DNA of 64,000 nt from a virus (lineage: Duplodnaviria > Caudoviricetes), in the IMG/VR virus record IMGVR_UViG_3300028833_000064, positions 96,001-160,000 of that record; one strand, 5' to 3'. Position 1 is the stretch's first letter, and each line of letters begins with the position of its first letter. The notes beneath the pieces were generated by a model, which did no database searches, was not told the DNA's origin, and worked only from the letters and a program-made list of their open reading frames with translations. Below are positions 37,469 to 49,966 of this stretch, one piece after another. Position numbers and translations under genes: made by a program.

Positions 37469-37485
37469 ATATTATTTTTATTTTG

Positions 37486-37558
37486 TGACACCGGTGGGAC
37501 TCGAACCCACGACCCCAGCATTAAAAGTGCCGTGCTCTACCTACTGAGCTACGGTGTC
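37486..37558 (-). tRNA. tRNA-Lys(TTT)
   Basis: Cloverleaf, loop CTTTTAA. Confidence 0.92.
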
Positions 37559-37877
37559 AAATTGACAGAATTTCTTCAAGTTTTTCATTTTTTGTTCTGA
37601 CTTGTGTCGACAAACTTGTGTATCGGTAAATACTTTCATTTGGCTCTGTCAAACCGTCCAAAAAAACTACCACAACTCCGGCCTCTCTTCAGCATCCTTT
37701 TGAAGTCTTATGAGTCTTCGATTCTCGACAGGACACCACTCCCAAAGAAAGTGTTTTAGAGCTCATTATACACAATCTATCGAGGAAGAATCTGCTTCGG
37801 ATGCATCGTGGGTTAGCCCCTACCACGGGTAGAATGTTTTTCGTCACACATACCATTGACGTTAGCGAAACTGTTTG

Positions 37878-37950
37878 CATGACTCGGGGACTCGAACCTC
37901 CATTTCCACAGTTGGACCCGTGGTGTTCTACCAAATTGAACTATCGCCAC
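37878..37950 (-). ncRNA. atypical/pseudo tRNA (8-nt anticodon loop GGTCCAAC, mismatched acceptor)
   Basis: Good D and T arms; abnormal anticodon and acceptor. Confidence 0.55.
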
Positions 37951-37977
37951 TAGACGAGGTTTTGGACACCTCGTTTG

Positions 37978-38121
37978 TGATAATGGGTGGATTCGAACCA
38001 CCATAGTCAAGAGTCTTTTCATCTCAGTCAAGTATAAACCATGCTATCGTGGATAGTCTATATGACTTTCAAACGATTACTCATTAATCTTGTAGTACAT
38101 CCCATCTACTTCACACTATCA
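37978..38121 (-). ncRNA. tRNA-like RNA with expanded core
   Basis: 8-bp acceptor TGATAGTG/CATTATCA plus canonical T arm; no normal D or anticodon arm. Confidence 0.55.
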
Positions 38122-38128
38122 TATTTTG

Positions 38129-38267
38129 CAGAAGTGGGAGGATTCGAACCACCATCTACGGTTTTGTGGTTAAATATCAATCTCTTGATAGATAACCTCG
38201 AATTAAAGGCTCTCACAGGACCTCACCCTGTATGGAGACCGTTATTCTACCATTGAACTACACTCCT
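38129..38267 (-). tRNA. tRNA-Trp(CCA) with a 68-nt anticodon-loop insertion
   Basis: ACGGT-CTCCA-[38232..38165]-AA-ACCGT, G73. Confidence 0.8.
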
Positions 38268-38355
38268 ATGGGGTGCTATGCCTTTTTAACACCTTGTTTC
38301 ATTTTACCAAATAGAAACTTTGATTCAATGTGAATCAGGAAATGCTTACATCTTG

Positions 38356-38462
38356 TTACGACACTGAGATTCGAACTCTAAACCACTTTACCCATTTAAG
38401 GGAGTTATCTGACCGTCGCCAGCCCCAGCATTGGGAGTGTGCTACCATTACACCATATCGTA
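38356..38462 (-). ncRNA. tRNA-like RNA with multi-hairpin anticodon region
   Basis: Acceptor, D and T arms intact; about 50 nt in place of the anticodon arm. Confidence 0.6.
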
Positions 38463-38468
38463 ATTTTG

Positions 38469-38542
38469 GGTGGTAAGTGGGGCTCGAACCCACACTTCCG
38501 GTTCCACAGACCGACGTGCTAGCCATTAACACTATAACCACC
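38469..38542 (-). tRNA. tRNA-His(GTG), G-1 encoded
   Basis: Loop CTGTGGA, G-1:C73. Confidence 0.9.
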
Positions 38543-38547
38543 ATATA

Positions 38548-39132
38548 TTATTTTGTAATCTTCTTTCTAAAAAATCTCTTCGATTCTTTATTTAGAGAAC
38601 CAAAATTTTCTGTTAAACTATGACAATTTGGACATAATAATTCCAAGTTTTCTATCAAATTGTTTGTACAATCACCATCTTTATGATGAATCTCAAGAGG
38701 AACTGTGTTTGAATATTCATTCATCTCACCCCAACCACATTTTTCACAATGATTGTTGTGTAATTCCATCATATATCTTTTAATAAATTTTGGAATTTGA
38801 CCAACACCAGATTGAAAGTTTTCACCATTCAACCACCTTTTAACTCTCTCTTTATATTGATATTCACTTTGACAAACATTTGAACAAAATTTTTCACCTC
38901 TATTCAACTCTTTACCACAATTCAAACAATATCTTTTTTTACAATTGCCTTTATTGAAGGTTTCCTTTTCATTTATCTTTCGTCTTGTTTCAAGTTCAAT
39001 ACCAAGTTTCTTTGCAATCTTTTTGATATTGTTACCAGAACAACCATATATTCTTCCAATTTCGGAATAAGATTTCTTTTGAAATTGTATCAAATCTACG
39101 AGAGTATCTTTTTCATCGTCCCATTTACTCAT
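38548..39132 (-). CDS. HNH homing endonuclease with N-terminal HTH and zinc finger
   Basis: CEKCG...LEIHHKDG...NLELLCPNCH. Confidence 0.9.
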   Translation of the reverse strand: MSKWDDEKDTLVDLIQFQKKSYSEIGRIYGCSGNNIKKIAKKLGIELETRRKINEKETFNKGNCKKRYCLNCGKELNRGEKFCSNVCQSEYQYKERVKRWLNGENFQSGVGQIPKFIKRYMMELHNNHCEKCGWGEMNEYSNTVPLEIHHKDGDCTNNLIENLELLCPNCHSLTENFGSLNKESKRFFRKKITK

Positions 39133-39206
39133 AAACGAACCTTTTCATTGTATAAAGTATTTATGAAAGTTCGTTTCATTTAATGTCATCATATCTGTAA
39201 ATTTTG

Positions 39207-39280
39207 TTGCCACAGTTGGACTCGAACCAACGACCACCTGTATATCCGACAGGTGCTCTATCCTGCTGAGCTATGTGACA
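39207..39280 (-). tRNA. tRNA-Ile(GAT)-like with G33
   Basis: Cloverleaf, loop CGGATAT. Confidence 0.65.
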
Positions 39281-39373
39281 GACGACAGTTGGCCAAATTG
39301 TCGTCAAAACATAAAATTAAGTCCTAATGAACCGTCACGTGTTTCGGTTTTTCGAAAATAACCCTATGAATCG

Positions 39374-39447
39374 TACCGGTGGGTGGATTTGAACCACCGA
39401 ATGCAGCCTTATGAGAGCTGTGTCTTAGACCACTTGACGACACCGGC
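39374..39447 (-). tRNA. tRNA-Met/Ile2(CAT)
   Basis: Loop CTCATAA. Confidence 0.85.
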
Positions 39448-39454
39448 ATTATTG

Positions 39455-39576
39455 AGCAGACGACAGGAGTCGAACCTGTAAAAGACTGTTTTTGAAAATT
39501 GCTGTTTTATTCTTTATCAGTCTTTACCAAGAATACTTCTACTGACAGTTGTGTTTACCAATTCCACCACGTCTGC
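39455..39576 (-). ncRNA. Leu(CAA)-like tRNA carrying a CAGCAA module
   Basis: Leu-type D arm, ACTGT/ACAGT stem, insert TATTCTT..AAGAATA-AAACAGCAA, then TTCAAAA; no long variable arm. Confidence 0.7.
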
Positions 39577-39584
39577 ATTGTTTG

Positions 39585-39666
39585 TGCCGAAGGTGGGACT
39601 CGAACCCACACCCCCTCACGGGGACTTGCTCCTAAGACAAGCGTGTCTGCATTCCACCACTTCGGC
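39585..39666 (-). tRNA. tRNA-Leu(TAG)
   Basis: Loop CTTAGGA, variable arm. Confidence 0.9.
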
Positions 39667-39673
39667 AAATTAG

Positions 39674-39847
39674 TGGAGTTATGTGGATTCGAACTTCATC
39701 TTCCAAACATCCATCAATGTTCCTTTGACAAATGTAAGGTCTGACGAAGGGGGAAAAGTTTTATAAAACCCCCACACCCTCTCCTGTAACAATTTTGTAC
39801 ACAACCATTACAGACAGCTTCCAGCCCGTTTAAGAGACCTTAACCCC
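39674..39847 (-). ncRNA. 174-nt RNA with an alanine-type acceptor stem
   Basis: GGGGTTA/TAACTCC-A with G3.U70, TTCGAAT loop. Confidence 0.5.
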
Positions 39848-39858
39848 GTTTTTTTTTG

Positions 39859-39930
39859 AGCAGGTGATGGTAATCGAAACCACATATCCAGCTTGGAAGG
39901 CTGGCATACTAACCATTGTACTACACCTGC
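39859..39930 (-). tRNA. tRNA-Gly(TCC)
   Basis: Loop CTTCCAA, U73. Confidence 0.9.
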
Positions 39931-39941
39931 TTGTTAAATAT

Positions 39942-40087
39942 ACAAGAACCAACCGGACTCGAACCGGCACTGACTGTCGTATTAAAACCTTTCGGTCTAC
40001 CGTCCTACATTTACAAGGGACTCACCCCTTTCCAGTACTCATACAATTCGTGGCGAGAGTATACCGATTCCCCCTCACAGTCCTTGT
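39942..40087 (-). ncRNA. tRNA-like RNA with expanded core
   Basis: Terminal helix ACAAGGACT/GGTTCTTGT, D-like loop, T arm GCCGG-TTCGAGT-CCGGT. Confidence 0.55.
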
Positions 40088-40094
40088 CTATTTG

Positions 40095-40171
40095 TGTTGC
40101 TGGTTGGATTCGAACCAACGACCTTCTGTGTATCAGACAGATGCTCTAAAAACCAACTGAGCTACAGCAAC
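40095..40171 (-). tRNA. tRNA-Ile(GAT)
   Basis: Loop CTGATAC. Confidence 0.88.
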
Positions 40172-40585
40172 ATTACATTACTCACCCAACCTGACATACA
40201 TTGGATTTGGATTATCAGCCGTTCCGTGAATGAAATCAAAATCTTCCATCAATTCTGCCATAATTGTTTTTGTTTAAAGGTTTAACATTAAAAATTTGTG
40301 CCTTCGTGGGTGCTGCCCCTAACTTTTCAGCCACATACCCTCTAACCGGTTCGGATTTATCACAACTTATTTCCGGATTTCCATTGTTATTCACCAAACC
40401 GTCGGGACCCCAAGCACTACTGCAGATGTCTTGAGGCTCTCGTCACTAACTTACGAGAATAAACCGGCATGTTAATACAGAGCCAAGTTGCTATCTTGGA
40501 ACGAATTTGTATGTTCTCACCTGGCGACCACAGCGACTCGCCTTCCAAAACAGTATCGTTATTGCATTTAACAACTTCTGTATAG

Positions 40586-40887
40586 TGGGCAGGGAGGGAC
40601 TTGAACCCCCAGAGTCCTTTCGGACAACAGATTTCAATGATATTGGTATCACTCGACTATGTAATTACCTTGCATTTCTGTTTAGGTACTCCGTATATAG
40701 TCTGTACACATTTATGAAGTTTCCTTCAATTTAGCTCGGCGTTGATTTGCTTTATTTTACGTGGTGCAAACTTTCACCGAATTAGCGGAGTTTTTCAATT
40801 TGCATTTCTACAAAAAGCTGCATTACCACGTGTAAACCAATTTTTAGTCAACAGTCTGTCCCGCTACCAATTACGGTTTACCTACCC
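40586..40887 (-). tRNA. tRNA-Tyr(GTA) split by a group I intron
   Basis: ACAGA-CTGT^AAA-TCTGT, long variable arm, A73. Confidence 0.9.
40635..40850 (-). mobile_element. group I intron (216 nt) in the tRNA-Tyr anticodon
   Basis: 5' exon ends in U, intron ends in G, P7 elements CAGACTA / CATAGTC. Confidence 0.85.
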
Positions 40888-40961
40888 ATTTAATTTATTT
40901 TATTTTTTTTTACCTTGTCCGTTTTTTCTTGGTTTATATATAGTTCTTCCGATTATTTTTG

Positions 40962-41035
40962 TGGGACCGAGCCGATTTGAACGGCTACCTCCAGATTTTC
41001 AGTCTGGCGTGACACACCAGTTACACCACAGTCCC
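40962..41035 (-). tRNA. tRNA-Phe(GAA)
   Basis: Loop CTGAAAA. Confidence 0.88.
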
Positions 41036-41070
41036 AATTTGAGGTTTTTGATGAACCTCTTAACATTTTG

Positions 41071-41192
41071 TCGGGAGGGCAGGACTCGAACCTACGACCA
41101 CGGCTACCCAAAAGCTATTAGAAAACGTTGCTGTTTGATTCTTTATCAAGAATCTATCATTTACGTGCTCTAACCAACTGAGCTACCTCCCG
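41071..41192 (-). tRNA. tRNA-Pro(TGG) with a 48-nt CAGCAA module at 28/29
   Basis: Removing 41116-41163 restores CGGCT-TTTGGGT-AGCCG. Confidence 0.85.
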
Positions 41193-41204
41193 TACTTAAA
41201 AAAA

Positions 41205-41292
41205 GCAGACCTGCTTACCAACTACTTGACCGAGGGCTGTCTCCCCTTTCGAGGGGCCTTCGTTGGTGGACTTGAACCACTCCAATATCTGC
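41205..41292 (-). ncRNA. circularly permuted tRNA-like RNA (YrlA-like order)
   Basis: GCAGA/TCTGC closing stem; T arm, then capped acceptor-like stem, then D-like loop. Confidence 0.55.
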
Positions 41293-41296
41293 CATT

Positions 41297-41364
41297 GTGA
41301 AATGTGATGGGACTTGAACCCATGACCTCCCCTCGGCGCTCTAACCACTGAGCTACACAATCAC
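41297..41364 (-). ncRNA. anticodon-armless tRNA mimic
   Basis: Perfect D and T arms joined by GCCGAGGGGAGGTC. Confidence 0.7.
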
Positions 41365-41516
41365 TTCCGAATCACACGGAATATGGTTCTTTTCAGTACC
41401 AATAACCTTGTTTCCACCACTTGGGTCAGGAACATACCCACGTCTATTACTACCAAGACGCCTAATCCCATCTTTTTTCTATCGCCCTTCAGGGAAAGGG
41501 CTTTCACATGTGAGAG

Positions 41517-41590
41517 TGGACCACGATGGGATTCGAACCCACGACTTTCTGACTGCCAGTCAGACGCTCTACCAACTGAGCTACGAGCCC
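41517..41590 (-). tRNA. tRNA-Ala(GGC)
   Basis: Loop CTGGCAG, G3.U70, 1-nt acceptor bulge. Confidence 0.85.
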
Positions 41591-41597
41591 ATGAAAA

Positions 41598-41688
41598 TTG
41601 AGTTGTTTAAGGTCTAACTCAAGACTAACGACCGGGGCGATTGTCATCGATTCCACCATCCGATTTTATATGACATCGGAAAACGTTA
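41598..41688 (-). repeat. structured direct repeat, copy A
   Basis: Shares both ends with 41812-41910. Confidence 0.8.
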
Positions 41689-41689
41689 G

Positions 41690-41808
41690 CGGAGAGAGTG
41701 GGACTCGAACCCACGACTACGGTCGTGACAGGACATTGAAAACATTGCTGTATGATTCTTTTTCAAGAATACTCTATTTACGTGTTCTACCAACTGAACT
41801 ATCTCTCC
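41690..41808 (-). tRNA. tRNA-Asp(GTC) with a 46-nt CAGCAA module at 28/29
   Basis: Removing 41735-41780 restores CGGTC-CTGTCAC-GACCG; G73. Confidence 0.85.
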
Positions 41809-41811
41809 GTT

Positions 41812-41910
41812 TTGAGTTGTTTAAAGTCCAACCCAAACGACTAGGGCTTGCCGGTTTGAATCCGACGAGCAGTTCCACCATCCGATTTTATCCGACATCG
41901 GAAAACGTTA
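41812..41910 (-). repeat. structured direct repeat, copy B
   Basis: Shares both ends with 41598-41688. Confidence 0.8.
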
Positions 41911-41973
41911 ACAAGAATCCATAGAATACAAAATTAAAAGTTTTGTCCTGATAATATTGCTGTACGATTCTTT
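41911..41973 (-). ncRNA. free-standing CAGCAA-module RNA enclosing a Lys-type anticodon stem-loop
   Basis: AAAGAATC-GTACAGCAA...ACAAAA-CTTTTAA-TTTTGT...GATTCTTGT. Confidence 0.75.
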
Positions 41974-41975
41974 AG

Positions 41976-42050
41976 TGGGGAATGAGGGACTCGAACCCCC
42001 GACTTTCTGAATGTAAGTCAGATACTCTGAACCGACTGAGTTAATTCCCC
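41976..42050 (-). tRNA. tRNA-Val(TAC)
   Basis: Loop CTTACAT. Confidence 0.9.
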
Positions 42051-42060
42051 GACATCTTAG

Positions 42061-42134
42061 TGGACACAGGTGGGAATCGAACCCACGACTACCTGTTTGC
42101 AAAACAGGAGTTCTACCAACTGAACTACTGGCCC
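42061..42134 (-). tRNA. tRNA-Ala(TGC)
   Basis: Loop TTTGCAA, 1-nt acceptor bulge. Confidence 0.85.
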
Positions 42135-42147
42135 AAATTAATATCAG

Positions 42148-42232
42148 TGCCCAAGACAGGACTTGAACCTGCACTCCCTAAACGGGAACCAGCCCCTCAA
42201 GCTGGTGTGTCTACCAATTCCACCACCTGGGC
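42148..42232 (-). tRNA. tRNA-Leu(GAG)
   Basis: Loop TTGAGGG, variable arm. Confidence 0.9.
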
Positions 42233-42248
42233 ATATTGCTTTCATTTG

Positions 42249-42320
42249 TTGTCCTATCAGGTTTCGAACCTAAAACTTCAGAGCCAGAATCTGACGTGTT
42301 ACCTATTATACCATAGGACA
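42249..42320 (-). tRNA. tRNA-Gln(CTG)
   Basis: Loop TTCTGGC. Confidence 0.88.
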
Positions 42321-42433
42321 ATTTTACAAAACCTAACCAAACCTTGATTAATGTCGTGAGCTTTGATTATACACACACGTCCGATTTCCACGGATATTTA
42401 CACTCTTAACCAGTTTGGTACCGGTTTTGTATG

Positions 42434-42504
42434 TTGTCCTACTTGGACTCGAACCCAGAATTCTTCATCCAAAATGAAGCGTGTTACCGTTACACCATAG
42501 GACA
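42434..42504 (-). tRNA. tRNA-Gln(TTG)
   Basis: Loop TTTTGGA. Confidence 0.88.
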
Positions 42505-42517
42505 ATGTTATCTCAAA

Positions 42518-42554
42518 TAAAAAATCTCACACTTTCGAAAGAATGTGTGAGATG
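42518..42554 (-). terminator. intrinsic terminator inside the tRNA array
   Basis: ATCTCACAC/GTGTGAGAT hairpin plus TTTTTT. Confidence 0.7.
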
Positions 42555-42741
42555 TTGGATATATGTTGAGATTAAAATGTGTTTCTAAAAAATCTTACAA
42601 ATGATACAAACAAATCACACAACTATGGACACAAATAGGATAATCGCCATCTGATAAAACCAGTAGACGAGTCCTGTTTTAAATCCCTTATGTTGTTTAT
42701 TTGTATTCATATCTTCGTTATTTATGTAAGTTTCTTTTCTA

Positions 42742-43278
42742 TTATTTATGTAAATTAATTTCGTATGGTTTTATTGAGCGTTTAACTCTTGCACCGCTTC
42801 CATACATAAGACTATCTGCAAGTGTATTTCCGACTTCTGGAAAACCATAACGTCTTTTGTTGTTTAACTGGTCAATATCTGGTTTAAGTTCCTTTATTTG
42901 TATAACTACGGAATACACAACCACTTTACTATTTGGATAACTCAACTCTCCGAAAGTTTTTGCAGAATCTGGATACACAGAAAGATATACATATCCACAT
43001 TCAGACTGAAAACTTTTTTTCCTTTTTAGACTTGTTGTCAAAATACCCTTATCCATTATAGGATTATTTTCACTTGTACCATGATAAAGTCTTATATAGT
43101 CTTCCTTGTGTCTTCTCAACCATCTGTTAAATTCATCAACAAGTTTTTCGTTATATTCACCATTGAATGAAGTGAAGAACTTAGAAGTTTCCTCATCATC
43201 TAAGACATCGTATGTCTTTGGTTCTCTATAACTACCATAGTATAATTCATTAATAAACTCATCAAACTTTTTAATCAT
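42742..43278 (-). CDS. ADP-ribosyltransferase-fold protein
   Basis: LYHGT...GI...GYVYLS...A..F. Confidence 0.6.
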   Translation of the reverse strand: MIKKFDEFINELYYGSYREPKTYDVLDDEETSKFFTSFNGEYNEKLVDEFNRWLRRHKEDYIRLYHGTSENNPIMDKGILTTSLKRKKSFQSECGYVYLSVYPDSAKTFGELSYPNSKVVVYSVVIQIKELKPDIDQLNNKRRYGFPEVGNTLADSLMYGSGARVKRSIKPYEINLHK

Positions 43279-43312
43279 ATTTCTGTTTGCTTTATTTATT
43301 TATGAATTTTTG

Positions 43313-43386
43313 TACTCCGGACGGGACTCGAACCCGTAATCTCCACCGTGAAAGGGTGGTGTCCTAACCAATTAGACGACCGGAGC
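43313..43386 (-). tRNA. tRNA-Glu(TTC)
   Basis: Loop CTTTCAC. Confidence 0.9.
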
Positions 43387-43453
43387 ATAGTTGTACCGAT
43401 ATCGCTCGATACGGGCGGGTGAAAAATCACCATCTTGCCAGGTCGGGTTTTTG

Positions 43454-43526
43454 TCGGGTAAAGAGGACTCGAACCTCCGACCCCTTGGTCCCAAACCAAG
43501 TGCTCTACCAACTGAGCTACTACCCG
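43454..43526 (-). tRNA. tRNA-Pro(TGG)
   Basis: Loop TTTGGGA. Confidence 0.92.
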
Positions 43527-44046
43527 ATTATTACTAAAGTGTGTTGTGAATGCACTTATAGTCTAACACATAACCTATTTCAGTGTATTCCAAAGCGAAT
43601 ATCTTTTTCAAATGCCGATAACCTCTCCCCACTATACTGCACATAAACGTATCAAGGGTTATTTAACACTGTGCTGTGTTGAGGTATCAAACACTATCAA
43701 GGACTAACCATTTGTGTGTTTTTCTTCACACCAACATCACTTTAGGGAAACATTCCTCTAACTATTCTTTCCCGTTCTCGGTCGCTTCCAATTCCGATAT
43801 TAGGTAGTTGTCTTACATCACCTGAACATCCGGTCGACAACGGGGCGAGCATAAATTTTCCGGATATCTTTTCCAAACTTTCATTGTTTATAGGAACAAC
43901 ATTTGGGTTTCGGGTTTCACTTATTCAGGCTCCGATTGAGTAATAATAGAGCGTGAACGTGAACATTTCATGTATATAATACTATAATTTCTCTGCCTAT
44001 AACACCTCGGATGAAAATTCCGAGCCCTATTCCTTATAGTATTTTG

Positions 44047-44119
44047 TGGACCCACTGGGAATCGAACCCAGACTTAAGGCTTGCAAAGCCCTCGTGCTTG
44101 CCGTTATCACTATAGGCCC
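44047..44119 (-). tRNA. tRNA-Ala(TGC)
   Basis: Loop TTTGCAA, G3.U70. Confidence 0.88.
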
Positions 44120-44185
44120 ATATAGAAAGACTTTTTGACACAAATTTCTCAAATCTGACTAAGAGAAGTAACAATGTTTGCATAC

Positions 44186-44345
44186 CAAGATTCTTTAACC
44201 CCCAAAGTGGGATTTTTCAAAATTTGTGCCGGACGGTCTTATCTTCGTCCAAGGGGTACAAACCGGAGAAAATTACCGGAGAAATACCGAGGTTAATTGA
44301 AACGTTTACTTTATGTATTTGTAAATCGTTGCTGTTTGAATCTTT
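44186..44345 (-). ncRNA. free-standing CAGCAA-module RNA, long cargo
   Basis: AAAGATTC-AAACAGCAA...GAATCTTG (compensatory stem). Confidence 0.7.
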
Positions 44346-44359
44346 AACAAACAATATTG

Positions 44360-44431
44360 AGCCGATGGAGGGATTTGAACCCCCGACCTGATGCTTACAA
44401 GGCAACTGCTCTACCCCTGAGCTACATCGGC
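44360..44431 (-). tRNA. tRNA-Thr(TGT)
   Basis: Loop CTTGTAA. Confidence 0.88.
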
Positions 44432-44435
44432 ATTT

Positions 44436-44497
44436 ACAAGGTTCACTTTTATGAGTCGAACATAATATAACCAAAAATAGTTGCTGTATGAACCTTT
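44436..44497 (-). ncRNA. free-standing CAGCAA-module RNA enclosing a T-arm
   Basis: AAAGGTTC-ATACAGCAA...TTATG-TTCGACT-CATAA...GAACCTTGT. Confidence 0.75.
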
Positions 44498-44549
44498 AAT
44501 TTAGTGAGCAATGAGCAGTCTCCCACTCAAAACCCAATTTCCTCTTTTG

Positions 44550-45325
44550 GAAAGCCTGAGAACTTAGGCAAAGTTGTCACCATTACACGATAGTTGGACA
44601 TCGTTGTTCACAGTATGTATTTCTACATCCTAGGTGACATGTGCTTCAGTTTTGTGAAAACTGACAAACTCTTACTGCTTGATATCGTAGATTTCCGTTC
44701 TCCACCGACCGTCCTGCATAAGACTTCTGAAGATGCCTCCTCATTGTTCGATGATTACTTGTACTTTCTTGTCTTCAACCTTGCAAGTCTCCGACACCCC
44801 CGTGTTACAGAGGGACAAGCACATTTTCTACCAAACAGTGTCGTGCTCTTTTGCTTTTTTTCAAAAATAAAAAATAATTGAATCTTAGCCTTTTTGATAA
44901 CTGTTTTTAGAAAGATGTGGCACGACTTTGGTCATTCCTACCTTTTGAGTAAGACCCAACCAACACCTTTCTATGTTTCATCGTTCCCCAACGACTCCAC
45001 ATTCTCCGTTTCGTTCCATACAATTTCTCATACAGAACTAATCCTTTGTAATACTTGCAATTGATAGGGAAATCTTTCACAAGTACCTGCTAAAGACATC
45101 TATTGTACTTTCATACTCAAACCAGGTTTTACCCGATTGTCATCTGCTTCATCCTCATCATTTGACATTGGATTTCCCACAGACAACGTGCCCTAGCACT
45201 TTTCAACAGATTGCATCTTTCGATACAACGCCACATCCCGTTTATCTCGGATATGACTTTATCCCATTGCTGGATTATCCTTTGGTCAAGTCCGAAGACT
45301 TAACACTGGTTCTGAAAGCGAACCT
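44550..45325 (-). ncRNA. candidate large structured ncRNA (GOLLD-sized)
   Basis: About 780 nt between tRNAs with no credible ORF and many hairpins; ends approximate. Confidence 0.45.
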
Positions 45326-45331
45326 TTTTTG

Positions 45332-45404
45332 TAGCGGGGGGTGGATTCGAACCACCGACCTTCGGGTTATGGGCCCGACGAGCTGGCCTCTGCTCCACCC
45401 CGCT
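45332..45404 (-). tRNA. initiator-type tRNA-Met(CAT)
   Basis: GGG/CCC in anticodon stem, loop CCCATAA. Confidence 0.85.
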
Positions 45405-45418
45405 ATGTTTCATTTTAG

Positions 45419-45491
45419 CGGGAACAGTAGGGTTCGAACCTACGACCATCACCTTAACAGGGTGCCGCTCTACCAGCTGAGCTATGTTCCC
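45419..45491 (-). tRNA. tRNA-Asn(GTT)
   Basis: Loop CTGTTAA. Confidence 0.88.
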
Positions 45492-45517
45492 AATTACCAA
45501 TACTTGTTACCAAACTA

Positions 45518-45597
45518 GCGGTACAAGAGGACTCGAACCTCTGGTCTCCAACGTCCGTAAGGTCGTTGACGTTCTTCCCCATTAAACTATGCACCTG
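45518..45597 (-). ncRNA. tRNA-like RNA with an extended anticodon arm
   Basis: TCAACG-A-CC-TTAC-GG-A-CGTTGG instead of a 5-bp stem and 7-nt loop. Confidence 0.6.
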
Positions 45598-45655
45598 GAC
45601 TTCCTATCATCATTGTGACTTGACCGGTATTCACAACTACTTTCAAAAATCTTAG

Positions 45656-45728
45656 CGGTCCATACGGGACTCGAACCCGTGTCGCCGCCGTGACAGGGCG
45701 GTATGCTAAACCACTACACCAATGGACC
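45656..45728 (-). tRNA. tRNA-Asp(GTC)
   Basis: Loop CTGTCAC. Confidence 0.9.
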
Positions 45729-45764
45729 ATTTCTATTTATGAAAAAGTTTTTTTAGGAAATTTT

Positions 45765-45837
45765 ACAAGGTTCACTTTTTTATCTTGGCATCTGAAATAT
45801 GGTTCGGATTAGATTTTTTATTGCTGTATGAACCTTT
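45765..45837 (-). ncRNA. free-standing CAGCAA-module RNA
   Basis: AAAGGTTC-ATACAGCAA...GAACCTTGT. Confidence 0.75.
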
Positions 45838-45845
45838 AAATGTGT

Positions 45846-45913
45846 ACAAGAATCTTTTCCTGAGTCATTCAAAAACACTGAATTTCATAGAAATTGTTGC
45901 TGTATGATTCTTT
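45846..45913 (-). ncRNA. free-standing CAGCAA-module RNA
   Basis: AAAGAATC-ATACAGCAA...GATTCTTGT. Confidence 0.75.
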
Positions 45914-46006
45914 ATCTACACGATTTCCTTATTTATTATTTTTCCCTAACAATATAAATATAACAAAAAATTCAAGAAATTTTAATTTTTTTGAATTTTT
46001 TTTTTG

Positions 46007-46078
46007 AGCAGATGAGCAGAATCGAACCGCCATCTCCAGCTTGGCAAGCTGATGCACTAACCATTGTGCTACATCTGC
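46007..46078 (-). tRNA. tRNA-Gly(GCC)
   Basis: Loop TTGCCAA. Confidence 0.88.
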
Positions 46079-46086
46079 ATAAAAAG

Positions 46087-46173
46087 CGGAGAGGGAGGGA
46101 TTCGAACCCCCGGAGGCTGTTACACCCCAACGGTTTTCAAGACCGCCACCATAAGCCACTCGGCCACCTCTCC
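46087..46173 (-). tRNA. tRNA-Ser(TGA)
   Basis: Loop CTTGAAA, variable arm, G73. Confidence 0.92.
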
Positions 46174-46298
46174 AATTGTCGTTTCTGTCTTTGTTGCAGA
46201 AGACTAACGACTGTGTGGAAACTGTCTCCTGACATACGATGCAACTCTACGTATATCTACTGAACGTGATGACAACCACAATCCTTCACGTGAATTTG

Positions 46299-46417
46299 TC
46301 GGGTGGAGGGGAATCGAACCCACTGTCACGGCTACCAAAAAGCAAAGAACGTATTGCTGCAAGATTCTTTCACAAGAATCAAATAAATACGTGTCCTAAC
46401 CACTAGACGACCACCCA
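46299..46417 (-). tRNA. tRNA-Gln(TTG) with a 46-nt CAGCAA module at 28/29
   Basis: Removing 46344-46389 restores CGGCT-TTTTGGT-AGCCG. Confidence 0.83.
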
Positions 46418-46419
46418 AG

Positions 46420-46506
46420 CGGAGAGGGAGGGATTCGAACCCCCGAGCCCCTTACGGGACTACCGGTTTAGCAAACCGGGGCATTCGGCCACTCTGCCAC
46501 CTCTCC
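46420..46506 (-). tRNA. tRNA-Ser(GCT)
   Basis: Loop TTGCTAA, variable arm. Confidence 0.92.
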
Positions 46507-46812
46507 AAATTTGTGTGTCTTAACACGGATTACCACACATTTAATGAAATTTCGGAGTCTCCTTCGGCCGTATCTTCCAGTGCATGTCCTATCTGATTGG
46601 GTTTGAATATGCTCTCAAATACCCACAGAGTCAAAAGACCAACGTATCGCTATCTGACATCGAATAAGACTGTATTCTTATAACCAGCTTGTACTTTATG
46701 TTCCATCCACGTTGGTATCGTAACACAAAGGGAGTTTGTAGTCATTAGCATCGGACAAACCAAACCTTTCCGAAAATTAATCCGATGACTGGGAGCGGCC
46801 CAGCGATTTTTG

Positions 46813-46885
46813 TGCCATCGAAAGGAGTCGAACCTATATACATTGGGTTTTTAACCCAATCACTCTACCATTGAGTTACGACGAC
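46813..46885 (-). ncRNA. atypical tRNA (anticodon arm 2 nt too long, AAA centre)
   Basis: ATTGGG-TTAAAAA-CCCAAT. Confidence 0.55.
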
Positions 46886-46889
46886 ATTT

Positions 46890-47225
46890 ACCATCGTTTT
46901 GGTACGATGGTGAGAACCTGCCCTTAAAGACATTGGTCTAAACTACCACCGATTAGGCGGCAGCGAGCATCACCATGTTATTGGTGTTGTTATTGTAGTT
47001 GCCATTTACTGACAAGATGAGTCTCTACACCTTTCATACTTATACAGTATCAAATCCAAGTCATCCCCGTGTTACCTTGGCGGTTCGGTCTCGTATAGAC
47101 CGCCCAAGGTTGAGTGTTCTGCTATTTGTATCGGACTTACAATTGATACCGAAGTCAGGGCGAACACTGAATAAACTGGTGGAGATGTTGGGGTTCGAAC
47201 CCAAGTCTACCATACTTTCCTAAAA
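46890..47225 (-). ncRNA. ssrA: circularly permuted (two-piece) tmRNA
   Basis: T arm plus CATCTCC-A-CCA (ends 47177) lies upstream of 5' GGGGATG (47068); tag GNYNNNTNNMVMLAAA* at 47003-46953; outer ends approximate. Confidence 0.88.
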
Positions 47226-47245
47226 GTTTCAAACGAAACCCATTT

Positions 47246-47288
47246 GTGATGTCACGGGAATCGAACCCGTCGTTATTCCAAAAACATC
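47246..47288 (-). ncRNA. acceptor/T-arm minihelix
   Basis: GATGTT...ACGGG-TTCGATT-CCCGT-GACATC. Confidence 0.5.
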
Positions 47289-47329
47289 TGATTCTATTTA
47301 TGTTTTTTTATTTTCGAAATTTTTTTTAG

Positions 47330-47403
47330 TACTGACGGATGGGCTTGAACCATCGACCCCCATCTTATAAGGATGGTGCTCTAACCGACTGAGCTACGTC
47401 AGT
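47330..47403 (-). tRNA. tRNA-Ile(TAT)
   Basis: Loop CTTATAA. Confidence 0.85.
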
Positions 47404-47670
47404 ATTTTGTTGAACATCACACCGGAACTCCCTTTGGTAATTGCTTAATGGATATTCCACTTTATCCATCCAACACTTACTGTGTTGTTGTTGGTTATCT
47501 GTTCCGATTACAAGCAGCACACTTGATGATGTGGAAGAAAAGTCTTACTTTGTTCACGGTTATTTGCCATTCACCATTACTCCAACCGTACCGACTACCT
47601 ATCAGCAATCGAGGTTTTACGTCAGTCGTATTGACCCATTTGATAAGACATCCTGTGATTTCCAACATTG

Positions 47671-47744
47671 TGGTCCTGGAGGGACTTGAACCCCCGACCC
47701 GCTGATTATGAGTCAGCCGCTCTAACCAACTGAGCTACAGGACC
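47671..47744 (-). tRNA. tRNA-Ile2/Met(CAT)
   Basis: Loop CTCATAA. Confidence 0.88.
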
Positions 47745-47756
47745 GATTATGTTTTG

Positions 47757-48093
47757 TACTCCGAGTGGGACTTGAACCCACACGCCCTTTCGGGCAACAA
47801 ATTTTCATACCACACTTACTTTTACATAAGCCATCTACTTGAGATGTTGTAGTCTGGACTATTTCTTAACCATGCCTTTCGGTTTAGGTCTCCACCTATA
47901 TAGTCTCTACGCCATTTACACATTTCTGTGCTTTAGAGAGTCATCGCCAAAGATTATGTCACCACAATCGAGGTTTCTGTTTGTTAGGGCAGATTCTACA
48001 TCCCAACAATTAATCTTGTTGTTTTCTCTTTTCAGAAATGGATGCACTCTTTTTTATCAAAGTCTGTCGTGTCTACCATTCCACCACCGGAGC
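47757..48093 (-). tRNA. tRNA-Leu(TAA) split by a group I intron
   Basis: ACAGA-CTT^AAAA-TTTGT, variable arm. Confidence 0.9.
47806..48059 (-). mobile_element. group I intron (254 nt) in tRNA-Leu(UAA)
   Basis: Inserted after U34, terminal G, P7 elements GAGACTA / AATAGTC. Confidence 0.85.
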
Positions 48094-48105
48094 AGATTTA
48101 CTTAG

Positions 48106-48224
48106 TACTCAAGTGGGAGTCGAACCCATGGAAATACATCCCCCCAATGACTTTGTTCCCAAGCCACCAAAGCACACGAGTCTGTGTACGGGCAGCACGT
48201 CGTCCCATTGTCATCACTTGAGTA
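48106..48224 (-). ncRNA. tRNA-like RNA with expanded core
   Basis: TACTCAAG/CTTGAGTA acceptor plus T arm. Confidence 0.55.
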
Positions 48225-48767
48225 TCTCATCCGTTGTATATTCCGAAGGAATGTCGATGTTTATCCCTTATTATTTTTCCATCGACTCACATTCGGGTCG
48301 TGATGTTTCCATTCAGAAAACACAACAGACGATTTTGAGAATTTTTCTTCACTCAATCGGATTGGCCTAACCCGAAAAGCAAAGGCGACCTTTATAGACA
48401 TTTAGAGGAATCTTTCATATGGGTTGTACACCCCACCACCTTCTTTCATTTTATTGGTGGTCTCTCCCTCATTTAGTTCGGTCATAACATTCTTCATGGT
48501 GAGGTTGATTCTTGGTTTAACGTCTTCCACAAGTCACGGACGTATGGCTTAGGAATGGAATCTCCACTCTACCTCAACATACGGATTGGATTTCTATGCC
48601 CTATAGGGCAAAACCTTAATCCCCTGTGTTTAAACACATATTTTCTCTCTCCTGGGGATACTCGATTTTACGAGTGTACCATTTGAAGAAGATGACACGA
48701 TTTGGGTCACATTTCTCATTTACCATCTATAACACCCACATGGGTAGGAAGAGGGTTTGAACCGTCG

Positions 48768-49607
48768 TCAGATGGTGTAACGGCAATTCCGGAATGAAGT
48801 TTCTTCGTTAAAACCGTGCTTTCTTATTTTCAGGAGATTCTCACTCCATTCTTTTGATTTACGGCCTTGTATAATTTCGTGAAGAAGACCCTCTTCTTTT
48901 TCGAGTTTCTCCCTTTTTTTCTCTCTCACGGACTTCTTGTAGGCGGAATCACGCTCATATCTTGCCCGTGAGTATTCGGGAGTTTTCTTTCCGAACTCTA
49001 TAACTTCACCATCAATGACGGGATGAGCCTTTCGACATAGTTCGACAGGTAAAGGATAGAAAGACACCATTTTCGAAATTTTTTCGTACTCTTGTGGCGT
49101 TATCGTCTCGGTGAAAAGACGATGTAGTCTGTCCTTTCCAATCTTTTTTTCTAGACTCAAGATTTCAGTCTTGGTGAAGTTCTCCACATTAAAGGTATAT
49201 CCTGTCACAACTCTATTGTCAATGAAAGCTTTTTGCACTTTTTTGTGAAACATTGAGACTCTCTCATTTTTGGTGATATTTCCGACTTCATCAACAACAT
49301 ATTCGTTGTATTTTGAATGTGGATGTGTAATAGGATAAAGTTCTGAGTGTATCAAGAAATAACCGTCATAACCATATCCGAATTTTTCACGGATGTTATG
49401 GTTGAGGGTTCGTCGACACTCACCGTAGTTTTCTCCGACATGTTTTTCCCAAAATCTGTTGATATAGGAGAAAACATTACTTCTACGACACCACTTCTTC
49501 TCATAAAAGTCATAGAAATCACCATTTTTTTTACCGCTGTAACAGAATGTGTCCTTTGTGCAGGATGCATGTTGTACGGATTCTTCGTTTTTTTTAATTT
49601 TTTTCAT
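48768..49607 (-). CDS. basic hypothetical protein
   Basis: 279-aa ORF inside the RNA island. Confidence 0.65.
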   Translation of the reverse strand: MKKIKKNEESVQHASCTKDTFCYSGKKNGDFYDFYEKKWCRRSNVFSYINRFWEKHVGENYGECRRTLNHNIREKFGYGYDGYFLIHSELYPITHPHSKYNEYVVDEVGNITKNERVSMFHKKVQKAFIDNRVVTGYTFNVENFTKTEILSLEKKIGKDRLHRLFTETITPQEYEKISKMVSFYPLPVELCRKAHPVIDGEVIEFGKKTPEYSRARYERDSAYKKSVREKKREKLEKEEGLLHEIIQGRKSKEWSENLLKIRKHGFNEETSFRNCRYTI

Positions 49608-49698
49608 AGTATTTATCCTTAGTGTTATATACTTCGGATAAAACTAGAATTATAAATTTCGTGATTCATTTTTTTTACTTTTTAAACGTTAATATTTG

Positions 49699-49783
49699 TG
49701 CCCAAGGTGGGACTCGAACCCACACCCCCTCAACGAGGACAACATTTTGAGTGTTGAGTGTCTACCAATTCCACCACTTGGAC
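49699..49783 (-). tRNA. tRNA-Leu(CAA)
   Basis: Loop CTCAAAA, variable arm. Confidence 0.9.
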
Positions 49784-49788
49784 ATTTG

Positions 49789-49861
49789 AGCCCCATACCG
49801 GATTCGAACCGGCGACCTACTGCTTACGAGGCAGCCGCTCTACCGGCTGAGCTAACGGGGC
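49789..49861 (-). tRNA. tRNA-Thr(CGT)
   Basis: Loop CTCGTAA. Confidence 0.88.
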
Positions 49862-49868
49862 AAAAACT

Positions 49869-49966
49869 AGGGAAGTGAATGGGATTGAACCCGTATCATC
49901 CGACATGCACACGCTCTGAAAGAAGTGCAAGTCTCAGATTTCACCCCCTGACGACCATTATTCCCC
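49869..49966 (-). ncRNA. degenerate tRNA-like RNA with expanded core
   Basis: GGGAATAAT-like terminal helix plus ACGGG-TTCAAT-CCCAT T arm. Confidence 0.4.

What the first reader, a model, noticed from the sequence alone, without database searches (positions are those of the whole stretch)
41071..46417. Three tRNAs interrupted at exactly position 28/29 of the anticodon stem, each with an intact twin
Seen: Pro(TGG) 41071, Asp(GTC) 41690 and Gln(TTG) 46299 carry 48-, 46- and 46-nt inserts with the same 5' junction, CACG^TA. Deleting each insert restores a perfect 5-bp stem (C27 G28 G29 in all three) and a 7-nt loop. The inserts are far too short for group I/II introns and lack the terminal G. 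Uninterrupted Pro(TGG) 43454, Asp(GTC) 45656 and Gln(TTG) 42434 are also present, as is Leu(CAA) 49699 for the fourth case at 39455. Inference: either a new protein-spliced intron class giving conditionally activated backup tRNAs, or unspliced specialised tRNA-module fusions.
Basis: partly seen in the sequence, partly recalled or inferred. Interest (0 to 1): 0.9.

Follow-up and report, generated by a model that had tools for sequence, protein, structure and literature searches.

The report
Ro60-type docking handle inside phage tRNAs
Three tRNA genes of a large rumen phage do carry the same 46-48-base insert, but it is most likely a permanent docking arm for the phage's Ro60-like ring protein, not an intron, which would make them tRNA-shaped partner RNAs of a kind I found in neither Rfam nor the papers searched.

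Summary
Pro(UGG), Asp(GUC) and Gln(UUG) genes on the minus strand carry 48-, 46- and 46-nt inserts after CACG, between tRNA positions 28 and 29. Each has an intact but divergent twin (52-78% identity).

The insert is one copy of a repeated module: a covarying 7-bp helix starting AAG, three spacer bases, then CAGCAA. The 185-kb phage record holds ten copies (shuffles give 0.06). Four are hairpin-capped inside tRNA bodies. Five are free-standing and circularly permuted, carrying anticodon-arm or T-arm hairpins. One lies 17 nt before the start codon of a DUF2828+vWA gene, whose model matches Ro60/TROVE structures over its full length.

The same pairing recurs in many phages: 51 of 81 diverse DUF2828 loci have the module just upstream, against 1-10 of 81 in controls. 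These loci often also carry 111-135-nt module-bearing tRNAs.

Best reading (0.6): the inserts are a retained Ro60-like-protein handle, and the RNAs are permuted, YrlA-like Y RNAs that display a real, fast-changing anticodon arm. Splicing is not excluded (about 0.2), and the RNA-seq contigs I laid were inconclusive. Earlier notes of this scan reached the same reading on other phage and giant-virus DNA.

The parts
41071..41192 (-). tRNA-Pro(UGG) body carrying the handle. Exon-like parts are 41164-41192 and 41071-41115; the insert is 41116-41163 (48 nt: UAAAUGAUAG / G-AUUCUU-GAUA-AAGAAU-C / AAA / CAGCAA / CGUUUUCUAAUA).
   Evidence: Sequence read. Rfam tRNA model 45.3 bits across the insert. Model R1, built from unrelated phages, scores it 23.2 bits, E 0.0037, rank 2 in the window. 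The T stem changes in a compensatory way in relative G001.
41690..41808 (-). tRNA-Asp(GUC) body carrying the handle. The insert is 41735-41780 (46 nt); the helix is 6 bp, AUUCUU/AAGAAU, capped by GAAA.
   Evidence: Sequence read. Rfam tRNA 48.3 bits. R1 scores it 15 bits, rank 3. The gene is conserved in G001 with a 1-nt insertion after CAGCAA.
46299..46417 (-). tRNA-Gln(UUG) body carrying the handle. The insert is 46344-46389 (46 nt); the helix GAUUCUU/AAGAAUC is capped by GUGA.
   Evidence: Sequence read. R1 scores it 23.3 bits, E 0.0034, rank 1. The G001 ortholog (L204) has a shorter 5' linker and a repaired T stem.
39455..39576 (-). Leu-type tRNA body with the handle at the 5' edge of a UUCAAAA loop. 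The helix UAUUCUU/AAGAAUA is capped by a 14-nt loop, and there is no long variable arm.
   Evidence: (Rfam tRNA 46.9 bits). The G002 ortholog keeps a long variable arm.
41911..41975 (-). Free-standing, circularly permuted handle directly after tRNA-Val: AAGAAUC-GUA-CAGCAA, a 37-nt payload, then GAUUCUU. The payload hairpin ACAAAA-CUUUUAA-UUUUGU looks like a Lys(UUU) anticodon arm.
44185..44346 (-). Free-standing handle after tRNA-Thr: AAGAUUC-AAA-CAGCAA, a 135-nt payload, then GAAUCUU.
   Evidence: The payload was not analysed.
44436..44498 (-). Free-standing handle: AAGGUUC-AUA-CAGCAA ... GAACCUU. The payload holds a T-arm-like hairpin, UUAUG-UUCGACU-CAUAA.
   Evidence: z-score -2.85.
45765..45838 (-). 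Free-standing handle: AAGGUUC-AUA-CAGCAA, a 47-nt payload, then GAACCUU. It lies in tandem with the next copy.
45846..45914 (-). Free-standing handle: AAGAAUC-AUA-CAGCAA, a 42-nt payload, then GAUUCUU. The payload hairpin AUUCA-GUGUUUU-UGAAU has a 7-nt loop.
43453..43526 (-). Intact tRNA-Pro(UGG), the twin of the handle-bearing Pro gene (78% identity to its joined exons).
45655..45728 (-). Intact tRNA-Asp(GUC) twin (63% identity).
42433..42504 (-). Intact tRNA-Gln(UUG) twin (52% identity).

Best explanation
The inserts are copies of a small RNA 'handle': a 7-bp helix that starts AAG and ends CUU(G), then three bases, then single-stranded CAGCAA. This handle is most likely the docking site of the phage's Ro60-like ring protein, a 521-aa DUF2828+vWA protein encoded about 110 kb away at G000 23,413-24,975. 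That gene carries the same handle in its own leader.

In free-standing copies the helix is formed by the two ends of a small RNA, and the inside carries a tRNA part. In the three tRNAs the same helix is capped by a GNRA-like loop and grafted into the 5' strand of the anticodon stem. The result is a circular permutation of the YrlA (Y RNA) layout: a whole tRNA shape with free acceptor ends and an exposed anticodon loop, plus a protein handle.

Shown here: the module family, its covariation, its link to the DUF2828 gene, and the Ro60-like fold. Inferred: that the protein binds the handle, that the RNAs stay unspliced, and that the intact twins do the decoding. I also infer that the handle-bearing copies tether or present an anticodon arm to some anticodon-reading partner, for example as bait for host anticodon nucleases or as a tether to an RNA-processing enzyme, as Y RNAs tether Ro60 to PNPase.
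For: 1. Strict module count in the phage record: 10, all on one strand, against 0.06 in shuffles. Nine lie in the RNA island and one lies 17 nt before the ATG of the DUF2828 gene.
2. The AlphaFold model of that protein (pLDDT 82) has 13 top PDB matches, all Ro60/TROVE over the full length. They include Thermus phage phiLo Ro60, Xenopus Ro and Deinococcus Rsr, with E from 9e-10 to 2e-6. The MIDAS residues D311, S313 and S315 are invariant.
3. The module lies upstream of DUF2828 genes in 51 of 81 diverse IMG/VR loci, against 1/81 on the antisense strand and 7-10/81 in coding or downstream controls.
4. Nine of nine phage records that hold the module (G000-G003, and five more found through the RNA alone) encode DUF2828. 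None of five control records does.
5. Helix covariation: 92.7% of cells are paired, 106 cells change on both sides, and 0 of 500 shuffles reach this. RNAalifold on 27 handle-bearing tRNAs recovers the cloverleaf arms plus the handle helix.
6. A model built only from unrelated phages ranks the Gln, Pro and Asp inserts first, second and third in the window.
7. The same module occurs where no tRNA could result from splicing: 5' leaders, payloads that are only an anticodon arm or a T arm, and one payload that is a whole permuted tRNA (L140).
8. Close relatives keep the body but change the anticodon: GUU/UCU, UGA/UGU, and UGG/GAU/UUG. Ser and Leu anticodons also sit on class I bodies without a long variable arm.
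9. Each of the four handle-bearing genes in the window has an intact twin with the same anticodon.
10. Known biology: Y RNAs with tRNA-like domains are encoded beside Ro60 genes in bacteria and phages (PMC4201824), and phiLo Ro60 binds upstream Yrl RNAs (PMC12135203).
Against: No protein-RNA binding has been tested. The three handle-bearing tRNAs lie about 110 kb from the Ro60-like gene, so for them the link rests on the shared module alone. The tRNA bodies look fully functional: removing the insert gives perfect anticodon arms, identity features such as C38 and G73 in Asp are kept, and the Pro T stem changes in a compensatory way. That is also what an intron model predicts. The phage encodes an RNA ligase, a P-loop kinase, phosphoesterases and a CCA-adding enzyme right beside the array, which could heal and seal a nick at 28/29. 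Rfam's YrlA model does not match the module (22-28 bits against a cut-off of 69), and Pfam's TROVE family was not among the three families (DUF7788, DUF2828, VWA_2) that matched the protein at E up to 0.01. The co-occurrence counts include related phages, so they are not fully independent.
Confidence: 0.6

Rival explanations
1. The inserts are true introns of a new, protein-dependent kind. An unidentified endonuclease, perhaps guided by the Ro60-like protein on the handle, cuts at G28^U and before G29. The phage kinase/phosphatase and RNA ligase then seal the nick in the anticodon stem, giving conditionally matured backup tRNAs.
For: Exact removal restores canonical anticodon arms in the three window genes and their G001 orthologs, and can be drawn for the other hand-parsed relatives. 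That set was selected for a CGUA junction, and ARAGORN was too permissive to fix cut sites. The junction CG^UA recurs in 30 module-bearing tRNAs from many phages, though that set was chosen using this motif. A nick at 28/29 inside a duplex is the kind of substrate Rnl2-type ligases seal (established knowledge), and a PF09414 ligase, an AAA_33 kinase and phosphoesterases flank the array. One module encloses a complete permuted tRNA (L140), the layout that BHB splicing resolves in Cyanidioschyzon. The tRNA identity features are kept.
Against: No bulge-helix-bulge motif can be drawn. EndA (PF01974) and RtcB (PF01139) are absent from G000-G003. The linkers on both sides of the helix change length even between close relatives, so no fixed ruler to the cut sites exists. 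Free-standing copies lack the UA junction. Modules in mRNA leaders and around bare hairpins have nothing to splice. Anticodons mismatch their bodies in several family members. RNA-library contigs cover the Pro insert unspliced (weak). No joined 22-mer was found in IMG/VR, and the single match in the JGI metagenome contigs was a chance hit.
Confidence: 0.2
2. The module is a general RNA processing, stabilising or translation-control element of these phages, for example an end-protecting stem or an RNase site. Its link to DUF2828 would then be regulatory only, and inside tRNAs it would be a tolerated passenger.
For: Free-standing copies often start a few bases after a tRNA 3' end or directly before a start codon. 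In G003 four copies follow a promoter-like sequence at dispersed sites.
Against: The link to one protein family holds across very different phages, in 9/9 records against 0/5 controls and 51/81 loci. A Ro60 fold is an RNA-binding ring whose known partners have this layout, an end-to-end stem with a conserved motif on the 5' strand (PMC12135203). Payloads are consistently tRNA parts.
Confidence: 0.1
3. The interrupted genes are tRNA pseudogenes disrupted by a small mobile DNA element that targets CACG^TA.
For: The three inserts share the same junction. The element is repeated, and intact twins make the interrupted copies dispensable for decoding.
Against: The bodies are conserved with compensatory stem changes between G000 and G001. 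They are not copies of the twins (52-78% identity). The helix covaries as RNA across 45 distinct sequences. There are no target duplications or terminal repeats. The element also exists in permuted form, which a transposon would not give. No empty site was found in IMG/VR.
Confidence: 0.04

Closest known systems
Y RNAs of the YrlA type with Ro60/Rsr (Chen et al. 2014, PMC4201824; Rfam RF02553), and Yrl1/Yrl2 of Thermus phage phiLo (PMC12135203)
   Same: A Ro60-fold ring protein with a vWA/MIDAS domain. Partner-RNA candidates are encoded at or near its gene. They have an end-to-end stem with a conserved single-stranded motif next to the stem's 5' strand, joined to a tRNA-like domain. Phages are known to carry such pairs.
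   Different: By sequence the protein belongs to DUF2828+DUF7788, not Pfam TROVE. The motif is NNN-CAGCAA rather than the CGAA bulged helix, and Rfam's YrlA model does not score it. Here the handle is capped and grafted into the anticodon stem of an otherwise complete tRNA, which keeps free acceptor ends and a canonical anticodon loop. YrlA instead closes the acceptor and lacks an anticodon loop. There are many copies with different anticodons, most lying far from the protein gene.
Class I RNAs of dictyostelid social amoebae (Kjellin et al. 2021, PMC7919456)
   Same: According to the paper's text, these are 42-65-nt RNAs with a short stem joining the 5' and 3' ends. They start with AAG and end with CUGU. 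An 11-nt motif lies beside the 5' stem strand, with nearly invariant positions T3, C6, C9, A10 and A11. The rest of the RNA is variable. The free-standing phage copies share all of this: a start at (A)AAG, a 7-bp stem, ..ACAGCAA, and an end at CUUGU.
   Different: Class I RNAs are eukaryotic, driven by the DUSE promoter, and their reported binder is the RRM protein Rnp1A/CIBP. No tRNA-embedded form is described. The exact motif letters are in a figure I could not read, so the match is to the described positions only.
Protein-spliced tRNA introns of archaea and eukaryotes (bulge-helix-bulge, EndA/TSEN plus RtcB or Trl1), including non-canonical positions and permuted tRNA genes (PMC4090602)
   Same: A short insert in the anticodon arm at a non-canonical site. 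Exact removal restores the cloverleaf. The same element also occurs in a permuted layout around a whole tRNA. Ligases are encoded nearby.
   Different: No BHB motif, no EndA and no RtcB. The element has its own conserved sequence, and it occurs widely outside tRNAs.
'Enigmatic' tRNA introns of Lak megaphages (Devoto et al. 2019, PMC6784885)
   Same: Inserts in phage tRNA genes that are not group I introns and have no known splicing mechanism.
   Different: Lak inserts are 79-114 nt and sit in the anticodon loop. They begin with a UACA hairpin, often enclose a T-arm-like element, and those I could read in the supplement contain no CAGCAA. In this window it is the tRNA-Trp insert (38129-38267), not the three inserts of the finding, that resembles them.

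Membership tests
CAGCAA-handle RNAs paired with DUF2828 Ro60-like proteins (not in Rfam; seen repeatedly in this scan) | A 6-7-bp helix, usually AAG.../...CUU(G), whose sequence varies while pairing is kept | tested here: met
   Searches show three covarying helix variants in this phage and its relatives; 92.7% paired, 106 double changes, 0 of 500 shuffles. One search gives the RNAalifold result.
CAGCAA-handle RNAs paired with DUF2828 Ro60-like proteins (not in Rfam; seen repeatedly in this scan) | Three to four bases, then C(A/U)GC(A/G)A, directly 3' of the AAG strand of the helix | tested here: met
   C, G, C, A and A are invariant in 27 handle-bearing tRNAs.
CAGCAA-handle RNAs paired with DUF2828 Ro60-like proteins (not in Rfam; seen repeatedly in this scan) | Recognised by a covariance model built from members in unrelated phages | tested here: met
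   the Gln, Pro and Asp inserts rank 1-3 of 128 kb searched (23.3, 23.2 and 15 bits). The Asp score alone is not significant (E 0.27).
CAGCAA-handle RNAs paired with DUF2828 Ro60-like proteins (not in Rfam; seen repeatedly in this scan) | The same genome encodes a DUF2828+vWA protein, typically with a handle just upstream | tested here: met
   (G000 gene, with the handle 17 nt before the ATG). (51/81 loci; 9/9 records against 0/5 controls).
CAGCAA-handle RNAs paired with DUF2828 Ro60-like proteins (not in Rfam; seen repeatedly in this scan) | Physical binding of the protein to the handle | not testable with these tools
   No protein-RNA prediction or experiment was available.
YrlA / Y RNA (Rfam RF02553) | Scores at or above the family's gathering threshold | tested here: not met
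   the only YrlA hits are 22.8-27.8 bits (cut-off 69). They lie on ordinary tRNAs, not on the inserts.
YrlA / Y RNA (Rfam RF02553) | tRNA-like domain joined to a protein-binding stem, encoded beside a Ro60 gene | tested here: inconclusive
   The tRNA domain and stem are present. Adjacency holds for the leader copy and in many other phages. The three genes of the finding, however, lie about 110 kb from the Ro60-like gene.
Ro60 / TROVE proteins | Ring of HEAT-like repeats plus a vWA domain with a MIDAS motif | tested here: met
   top 13 Foldseek hits are Ro60/TROVE, 515-586 aligned columns. D311, S313 and S315 are invariant.
Ro60 / TROVE proteins | Sequence match to Pfam TROVE (PF05731) | tested here: not met
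   One search lists only DUF7788, DUF2828 and weak VWA_2. Identity to solved Ro60 structures is 11-13%.
BHB-type protein-spliced tRNA introns | Bulge-helix-bulge motif at the two junctions | tested here: not met
   By inspection and the folds, G29-U31 pair with A39-C41 of the same exon. The insert is therefore a one-sided branch, not two bulges across a 4-bp helix.
BHB-type protein-spliced tRNA introns | Splicing endonuclease (EndA) and RtcB or equivalent ligase in the genome | tested here: not met
   no PF01974 or PF01139 in G000-G003. The host was not examined. ATP-dependent RNA ligases are present.
Group I self-splicing tRNA introns | Intron of 200 nt or more with the P1-P9 core and a terminal G, in the anticodon loop | tested here: not met
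   The inserts are 46-48 nt, lie in the stem and end in A or U. No intron or ribozyme family matched at E up to 1.
Lak-phage type tRNA inserts | 79-114-nt insert in the anticodon loop that starts with a UACA hairpin | tested here: not met
   (supplementary table). The Trp insert at 38129-38267 does fit.

The most novel reading that the evidence does not exclude
The handle marks a third kind of tRNA intron. The Ro60-like ring holds the capped helix while a nuclease cuts both flanks, and the phage's kinase/phosphatase and Rnl-type ligase reseal the nick at 28/29. The phage would thus keep a reserve set of tRNAs with swappable anticodons, matured only when host anticodon nucleases destroy the working set. 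The free-standing copies would then release loose anticodon arms or circular RNAs by the same machinery.
Probability: 0.15. Interest if true: 0.95.

Novelty: new variant of a known kind. Interest (0 to 1): 0.78.

Why it matters
Ro60 and its Y RNAs are a conserved RNA-surveillance particle whose tRNA-like domain has no known purpose. Here a very diverged Ro60-like protein, filed in Pfam only as DUF2828, is paired with a different handle. That handle is grafted into complete tRNAs that keep a readable and rapidly changing anticodon.

If the reading holds, three things follow. DUF2828 gets a function. A large RNA family missing from Rfam is defined. The unexplained Class I RNAs of social amoebae may be linked to a protein partner. 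It would also suggest that Ro-type particles can be aimed at anticodon-reading machinery, which bears on the phage-host contest over tRNA cleavage. On the practical side, such 'tRNAs with introns' in phage annotations should not be counted as decoding tRNAs without RNA evidence.

Tried and rejected
RNA evidence: four rumen metatranscriptome contig sets were laid on 37000-51000. Contigs of a related strain cover the Pro insert unspliced. Only 15 of 110 joints were shown, all of them cross-matches from bacterial tRNA operons, and DNA carry-over cannot be excluded. I therefore draw no verdict on splicing.

Searches that were too unspecific:
- The 14- to 16-base pattern scans of IMG/VR gave mostly chance hits.
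- A loose helix+CAGC detector found 49 sites in the genome against 42-50 in shuffles. Only the strict AAG...CAGCAA definition is specific.
- Enumerating all cut sites with ARAGORN was too permissive to fix splice positions.

Joined-exon search: a 22-mer search for joined Pro/Gln exons found nothing in IMG/VR. It gave one chance match in a GC-rich coding region in the JGI contigs.

Structural ideas dropped:
- Hammerhead, pistol and hairpin-ribozyme cores were compared by eye, and none fits. Rfam found no ribozyme.
- The pairing of the junction ACGU(A) with ACGU/AUGU after CAGCAA appears in the MFE folds of Pro and Gln. It is absent in G002 Ile and many other members, and RNAalifold does not recover it.
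- A promoter reading of the motif was dropped, because it lies inside RNAs and its helix covaries.

Candidate nucleases: the ORFs inside the array (42742-43278, 48768-49607, 50277-50639, 50739-51101) have no Pfam match, and I did not pursue them further.

Lak-phage intron sequences contain no CAGCAA.

Full report
**Setting.** The window is bases 96,001-160,000 of a 185-kb IMG/VR phage record, estimated about 63% complete. Near-identical DNA occurs in sheep and cattle gut metagenomes. On the minus strand, between 37.4 and 50.7 kb, lies an RNA island. It holds 32 ordinary tRNA genes, a GOLLD-like RNA and a permuted tmRNA. It is followed by a CCA-adding enzyme, a PF09414 RNA ligase, a second ligase-like protein, a metallophosphoesterase, an AAA_33 kinase and a NADAR protein.

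**The observation.** Reading the minus strand confirms the finding.
- Pro(UGG): 41071-41192, with a 48-nt insert.
- Asp(GUC): 41690-41808, with a 46-nt insert.
- Gln(UUG): 46299-46417, with a 46-nt insert.

Each insert follows ...CACG and begins UA. Removing it joins C27 G28 to G29 and restores a 5-bp stem and a 7-nt loop. Rfam's tRNA model spans Pro, Asp and a fourth gene at 39455-39576, treating the insert as a gap. They share only 78, 63 and 52% identity with the joined exons, so the interrupted genes are old paralogs and not fresh duplicates.

**The insert is a repeated module.** All three inserts contain (G)AUUCUU-GNNA-AAGAAU(C), three bases, then CAGCAA. The motif AAGAAUNNNNCAGCAA is enriched in the window: 20 matches with up to two mismatches, a count reached in 0 of 100 shuffles, and all exact copies lie on the minus strand inside the island.

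Several copies are not inside tRNAs. In these, AAG(A/G)(A/U)UC-NNN-CAGCAA comes first and the complementary GA(A/U)(U/C)CUU follows 36-135 nt later. The helix is therefore closed by the RNA ends instead of a loop, which is a circular permutation of the insert.

Under a strict definition the whole record holds ten copies, against a mean of 0.06 in shuffles. Four are capped and sit in tRNA bodies. Five are free-standing. One lies elsewhere and is described below.

The free-standing payloads are tRNA parts:
- a CUUUUAA anticodon-arm look-alike at 41911-41975;
- a UUCGACU T-arm look-alike at 44436-44498.

In relatives I saw CUGAUAA, AUCAAAA and UUUGGGU loops, and in L140 a complete permuted tRNA whose acceptor is closed by UGAUU.

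**Link to a Ro60-like protein.** Three unrelated free-standing copies were followed directly by homologous ORFs. These belong to DUF2828+DUF7788, the latter a vWA domain. All of G000-G003 encode one.

In this phage the gene is at G000 23,413-24,975. Its leader reads UAAAGAUUC-UUGA-CAGCAA-(14 nt)-GAAUCUUG and ends 17 nt before the ATG. This is the tenth copy.

An AlphaFold model built from a 28-sequence alignment (pLDDT 82, pTM 0.77) was compared with the PDB. The 13 best matches are all Ro60/TROVE proteins aligned over the full length. They include the Ro60 of Thermus phage phiLo, Xenopus Ro and Deinococcus Rsr, with E from 9e-10 to 2e-6. The MIDAS residues are invariant.

**Generality.**
- Eighty diverse IMG/VR loci encoding relatives of this protein (43-69% identity) were fetched, plus one Logan contig. 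A free-form module lies in the 330 nt upstream, on the sense strand, in 51 of the 81. The figures are 1/81 on the antisense strand and 7-10/81 in coding or downstream controls.
- The helix sequence differs widely between lineages (AAGAGGC/GCCUCUU, GAGACGC/GCGUCUC, AAGGCAC/GUGCCUU, GGGACAC/GUGUCCC and others), while CAGCAA stays constant.
- In 15 of these loci scanned with Rfam, the tRNA model finds about 20 tRNAs of 111-135 nt, mostly upstream of the Ro60-like gene. The 17 that I read all carry the module.
- Five further phage records that I had reached only through the RNA motif all encode DUF2828. Five control records of similar size do not.
- On 45 distinct capped modules from phages unrelated to this one, 92.7% of helix cells pair and 106 cells change on both sides; 0 of 500 shuffles reach this.
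- A covariance model built from those 45 sequences ranks the Gln, Pro and Asp inserts first, second and third in the window.
- RNAalifold on 27 handle-bearing tRNAs recovers the acceptor, D, T and upper anticodon stems plus the handle helix. Covariation appears in 22 of 25 pairs.

**Intron or retained handle?** Several points argue against an intron.
- No bulge-helix-bulge motif can form, because the insert is a one-sided branch of a continuous stem.
- EndA and RtcB are absent from four related phage records.
- The linkers on both sides of the helix change length even between G000 and G001.
- The same module sits in mRNA leaders and around bare hairpins, where splicing would have no product.
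- Close relatives keep the body but change the anticodon: L344 GUU against L347 UCU, and L416 UGA against L418 UGU. The Pro-type body of this window carries GAU in G002 and UUG in L313.
- Ser and Leu anticodons occur on bodies without a long variable arm. Bacterial SerRS needs that arm (established knowledge), so these cannot be ordinary decoders.
- Each of the four handle-bearing genes here has an intact twin.

Known biology fits the alternative. Y RNAs are encoded beside Ro60 genes in more than 250 bacteria and phages and contain a tRNA-like domain (PMC4201824). The phiLo Ro60 binds two upstream Y-like RNAs that have a 5'-3' stem and a conserved motif beside it (PMC12135203).

I therefore read the three genes as tRNA-shaped, circularly permuted Y-like RNAs, in which the insert is the docking site of the Ro60-like protein.

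What they do as a particle is inference. The common denominator of capped and free copies is a displayed anticodon arm. The most economical idea is that they tether or bait some anticodon-reading factor, by analogy with Y RNA tethering Ro60 to PNPase.

**What keeps the intron reading alive.** The bodies are fully tRNA-like, with compensatory change in the Pro T stem between G000 and G001, and identity features are retained. A nick at 28/29 would be a good ligase substrate, and healing and sealing enzymes flank the array. My one RNA-seq attempt used assembled contigs and was inconclusive. A search for joined exons in IMG/VR and JGI contigs found only one chance match. I give splicing about 0.2.

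**Comparison with the literature.**
- Rfam 15 has no family for the module.
- Papers that I could search describe 'enigmatic' tRNA introns in Lak megaphages. These lie in the anticodon loop, are longer and lack CAGCAA. In this window it is the tRNA-Trp insert that resembles them.
- Dictyostelid Class I RNAs, as described in words in PMC7919456, share the free-standing layout: a start at AAG, a 6-bp terminal stem, an adjacent 11-nt motif with conserved T3, C6, C9, A10 and A11, and an end at CUGU.

**Earlier notes of this scan.** I consulted these after I had reached the Ro60 link myself. They report the same handle-DUF2828 pairing, and handle-bearing tRNAs, in several other phage and giant-virus genomes. 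They agree with my reading but are not independent evidence.

Noticed in passing
window 38129-38267 (-): tRNA-Trp(CCA) carries a different 68-nt insert between A36 and A37, starting UACAGGGUGAGGUCCUGU. It is conserved in G001 (68 nt) and G002 (46 nt), and no other Trp tRNA is present in any of the three arrays. Its 5' hairpin resembles the unexplained Lak-megaphage tRNA introns, so unlike the three inserts of the finding it may really need splicing.
   Followed up: partly
window 44553-44971 (-) and 46953-47239 (-): A GOLLD-like large RNA (Rfam 85 bits, E 3e-21, below the 150-bit cut-off) and a circularly permuted tmRNA (68 bits, above the cut-off) lie inside the tRNA array. RNA-library contigs identical to the phage cover the GOLLD region.
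   Followed up: no
window about 41598-41689 and 41810-41910 (-): A repeat of about 95 nt (AACGUUUUCCGAUGUC..AUAAAAUCGGAUGGUGGAA..) flanks the handle-bearing Asp gene on both sides. Its nature is unknown.
   Followed up: no
window 51384-61457 (-): A cluster of RNA end-processing genes lies beside the array. It holds a CCA-adding enzyme (51384-52820), a PF09414 RNA ligase (53715-54392), a weak 2H/CPD-like ORF (54734-55147) and a 525-aa protein with a PHA02142 OB domain (56370-57947). It also holds a metallophosphoesterase (58652-59125), an AAA_33 kinase (60315-60860) and a NADAR protein (61017-61457).
   Followed up: partly
L344:663-787 vs L347:690-814; L416:126-240 vs L418:223-337: Near-identical handle-bearing tRNA bodies in sister phages differ in the anticodon (GUU vs UCU; UGA vs UGU). 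This suggests that the displayed anticodon evolves faster than the body.
   Followed up: partly
L140 (IMGVR_UViG_3300029212_000010), around 4189-4320 (+): A free-standing handle whose payload is a complete circularly permuted tRNA: the 3' half, then the acceptor closed by UGAUU, then the 5' half ending ..AACG^UAUAAAAUAG. This is the YrlA-like layout, but with an anticodon loop retained.
   Followed up: partly
window 38548-39132 (-): An HNH endonuclease-like ORF (zinc ribbon plus HNH) sits inside the tRNA array.
   Followed up: no
window 45267-45282 (-): A degenerate module-like site (AAGGAUAAUCCAGCAA) lies upstream of the GOLLD-like RNA and is conserved in G001. The partner strand is imperfect, and it is unclear whether this is a handle.
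   Followed up: no
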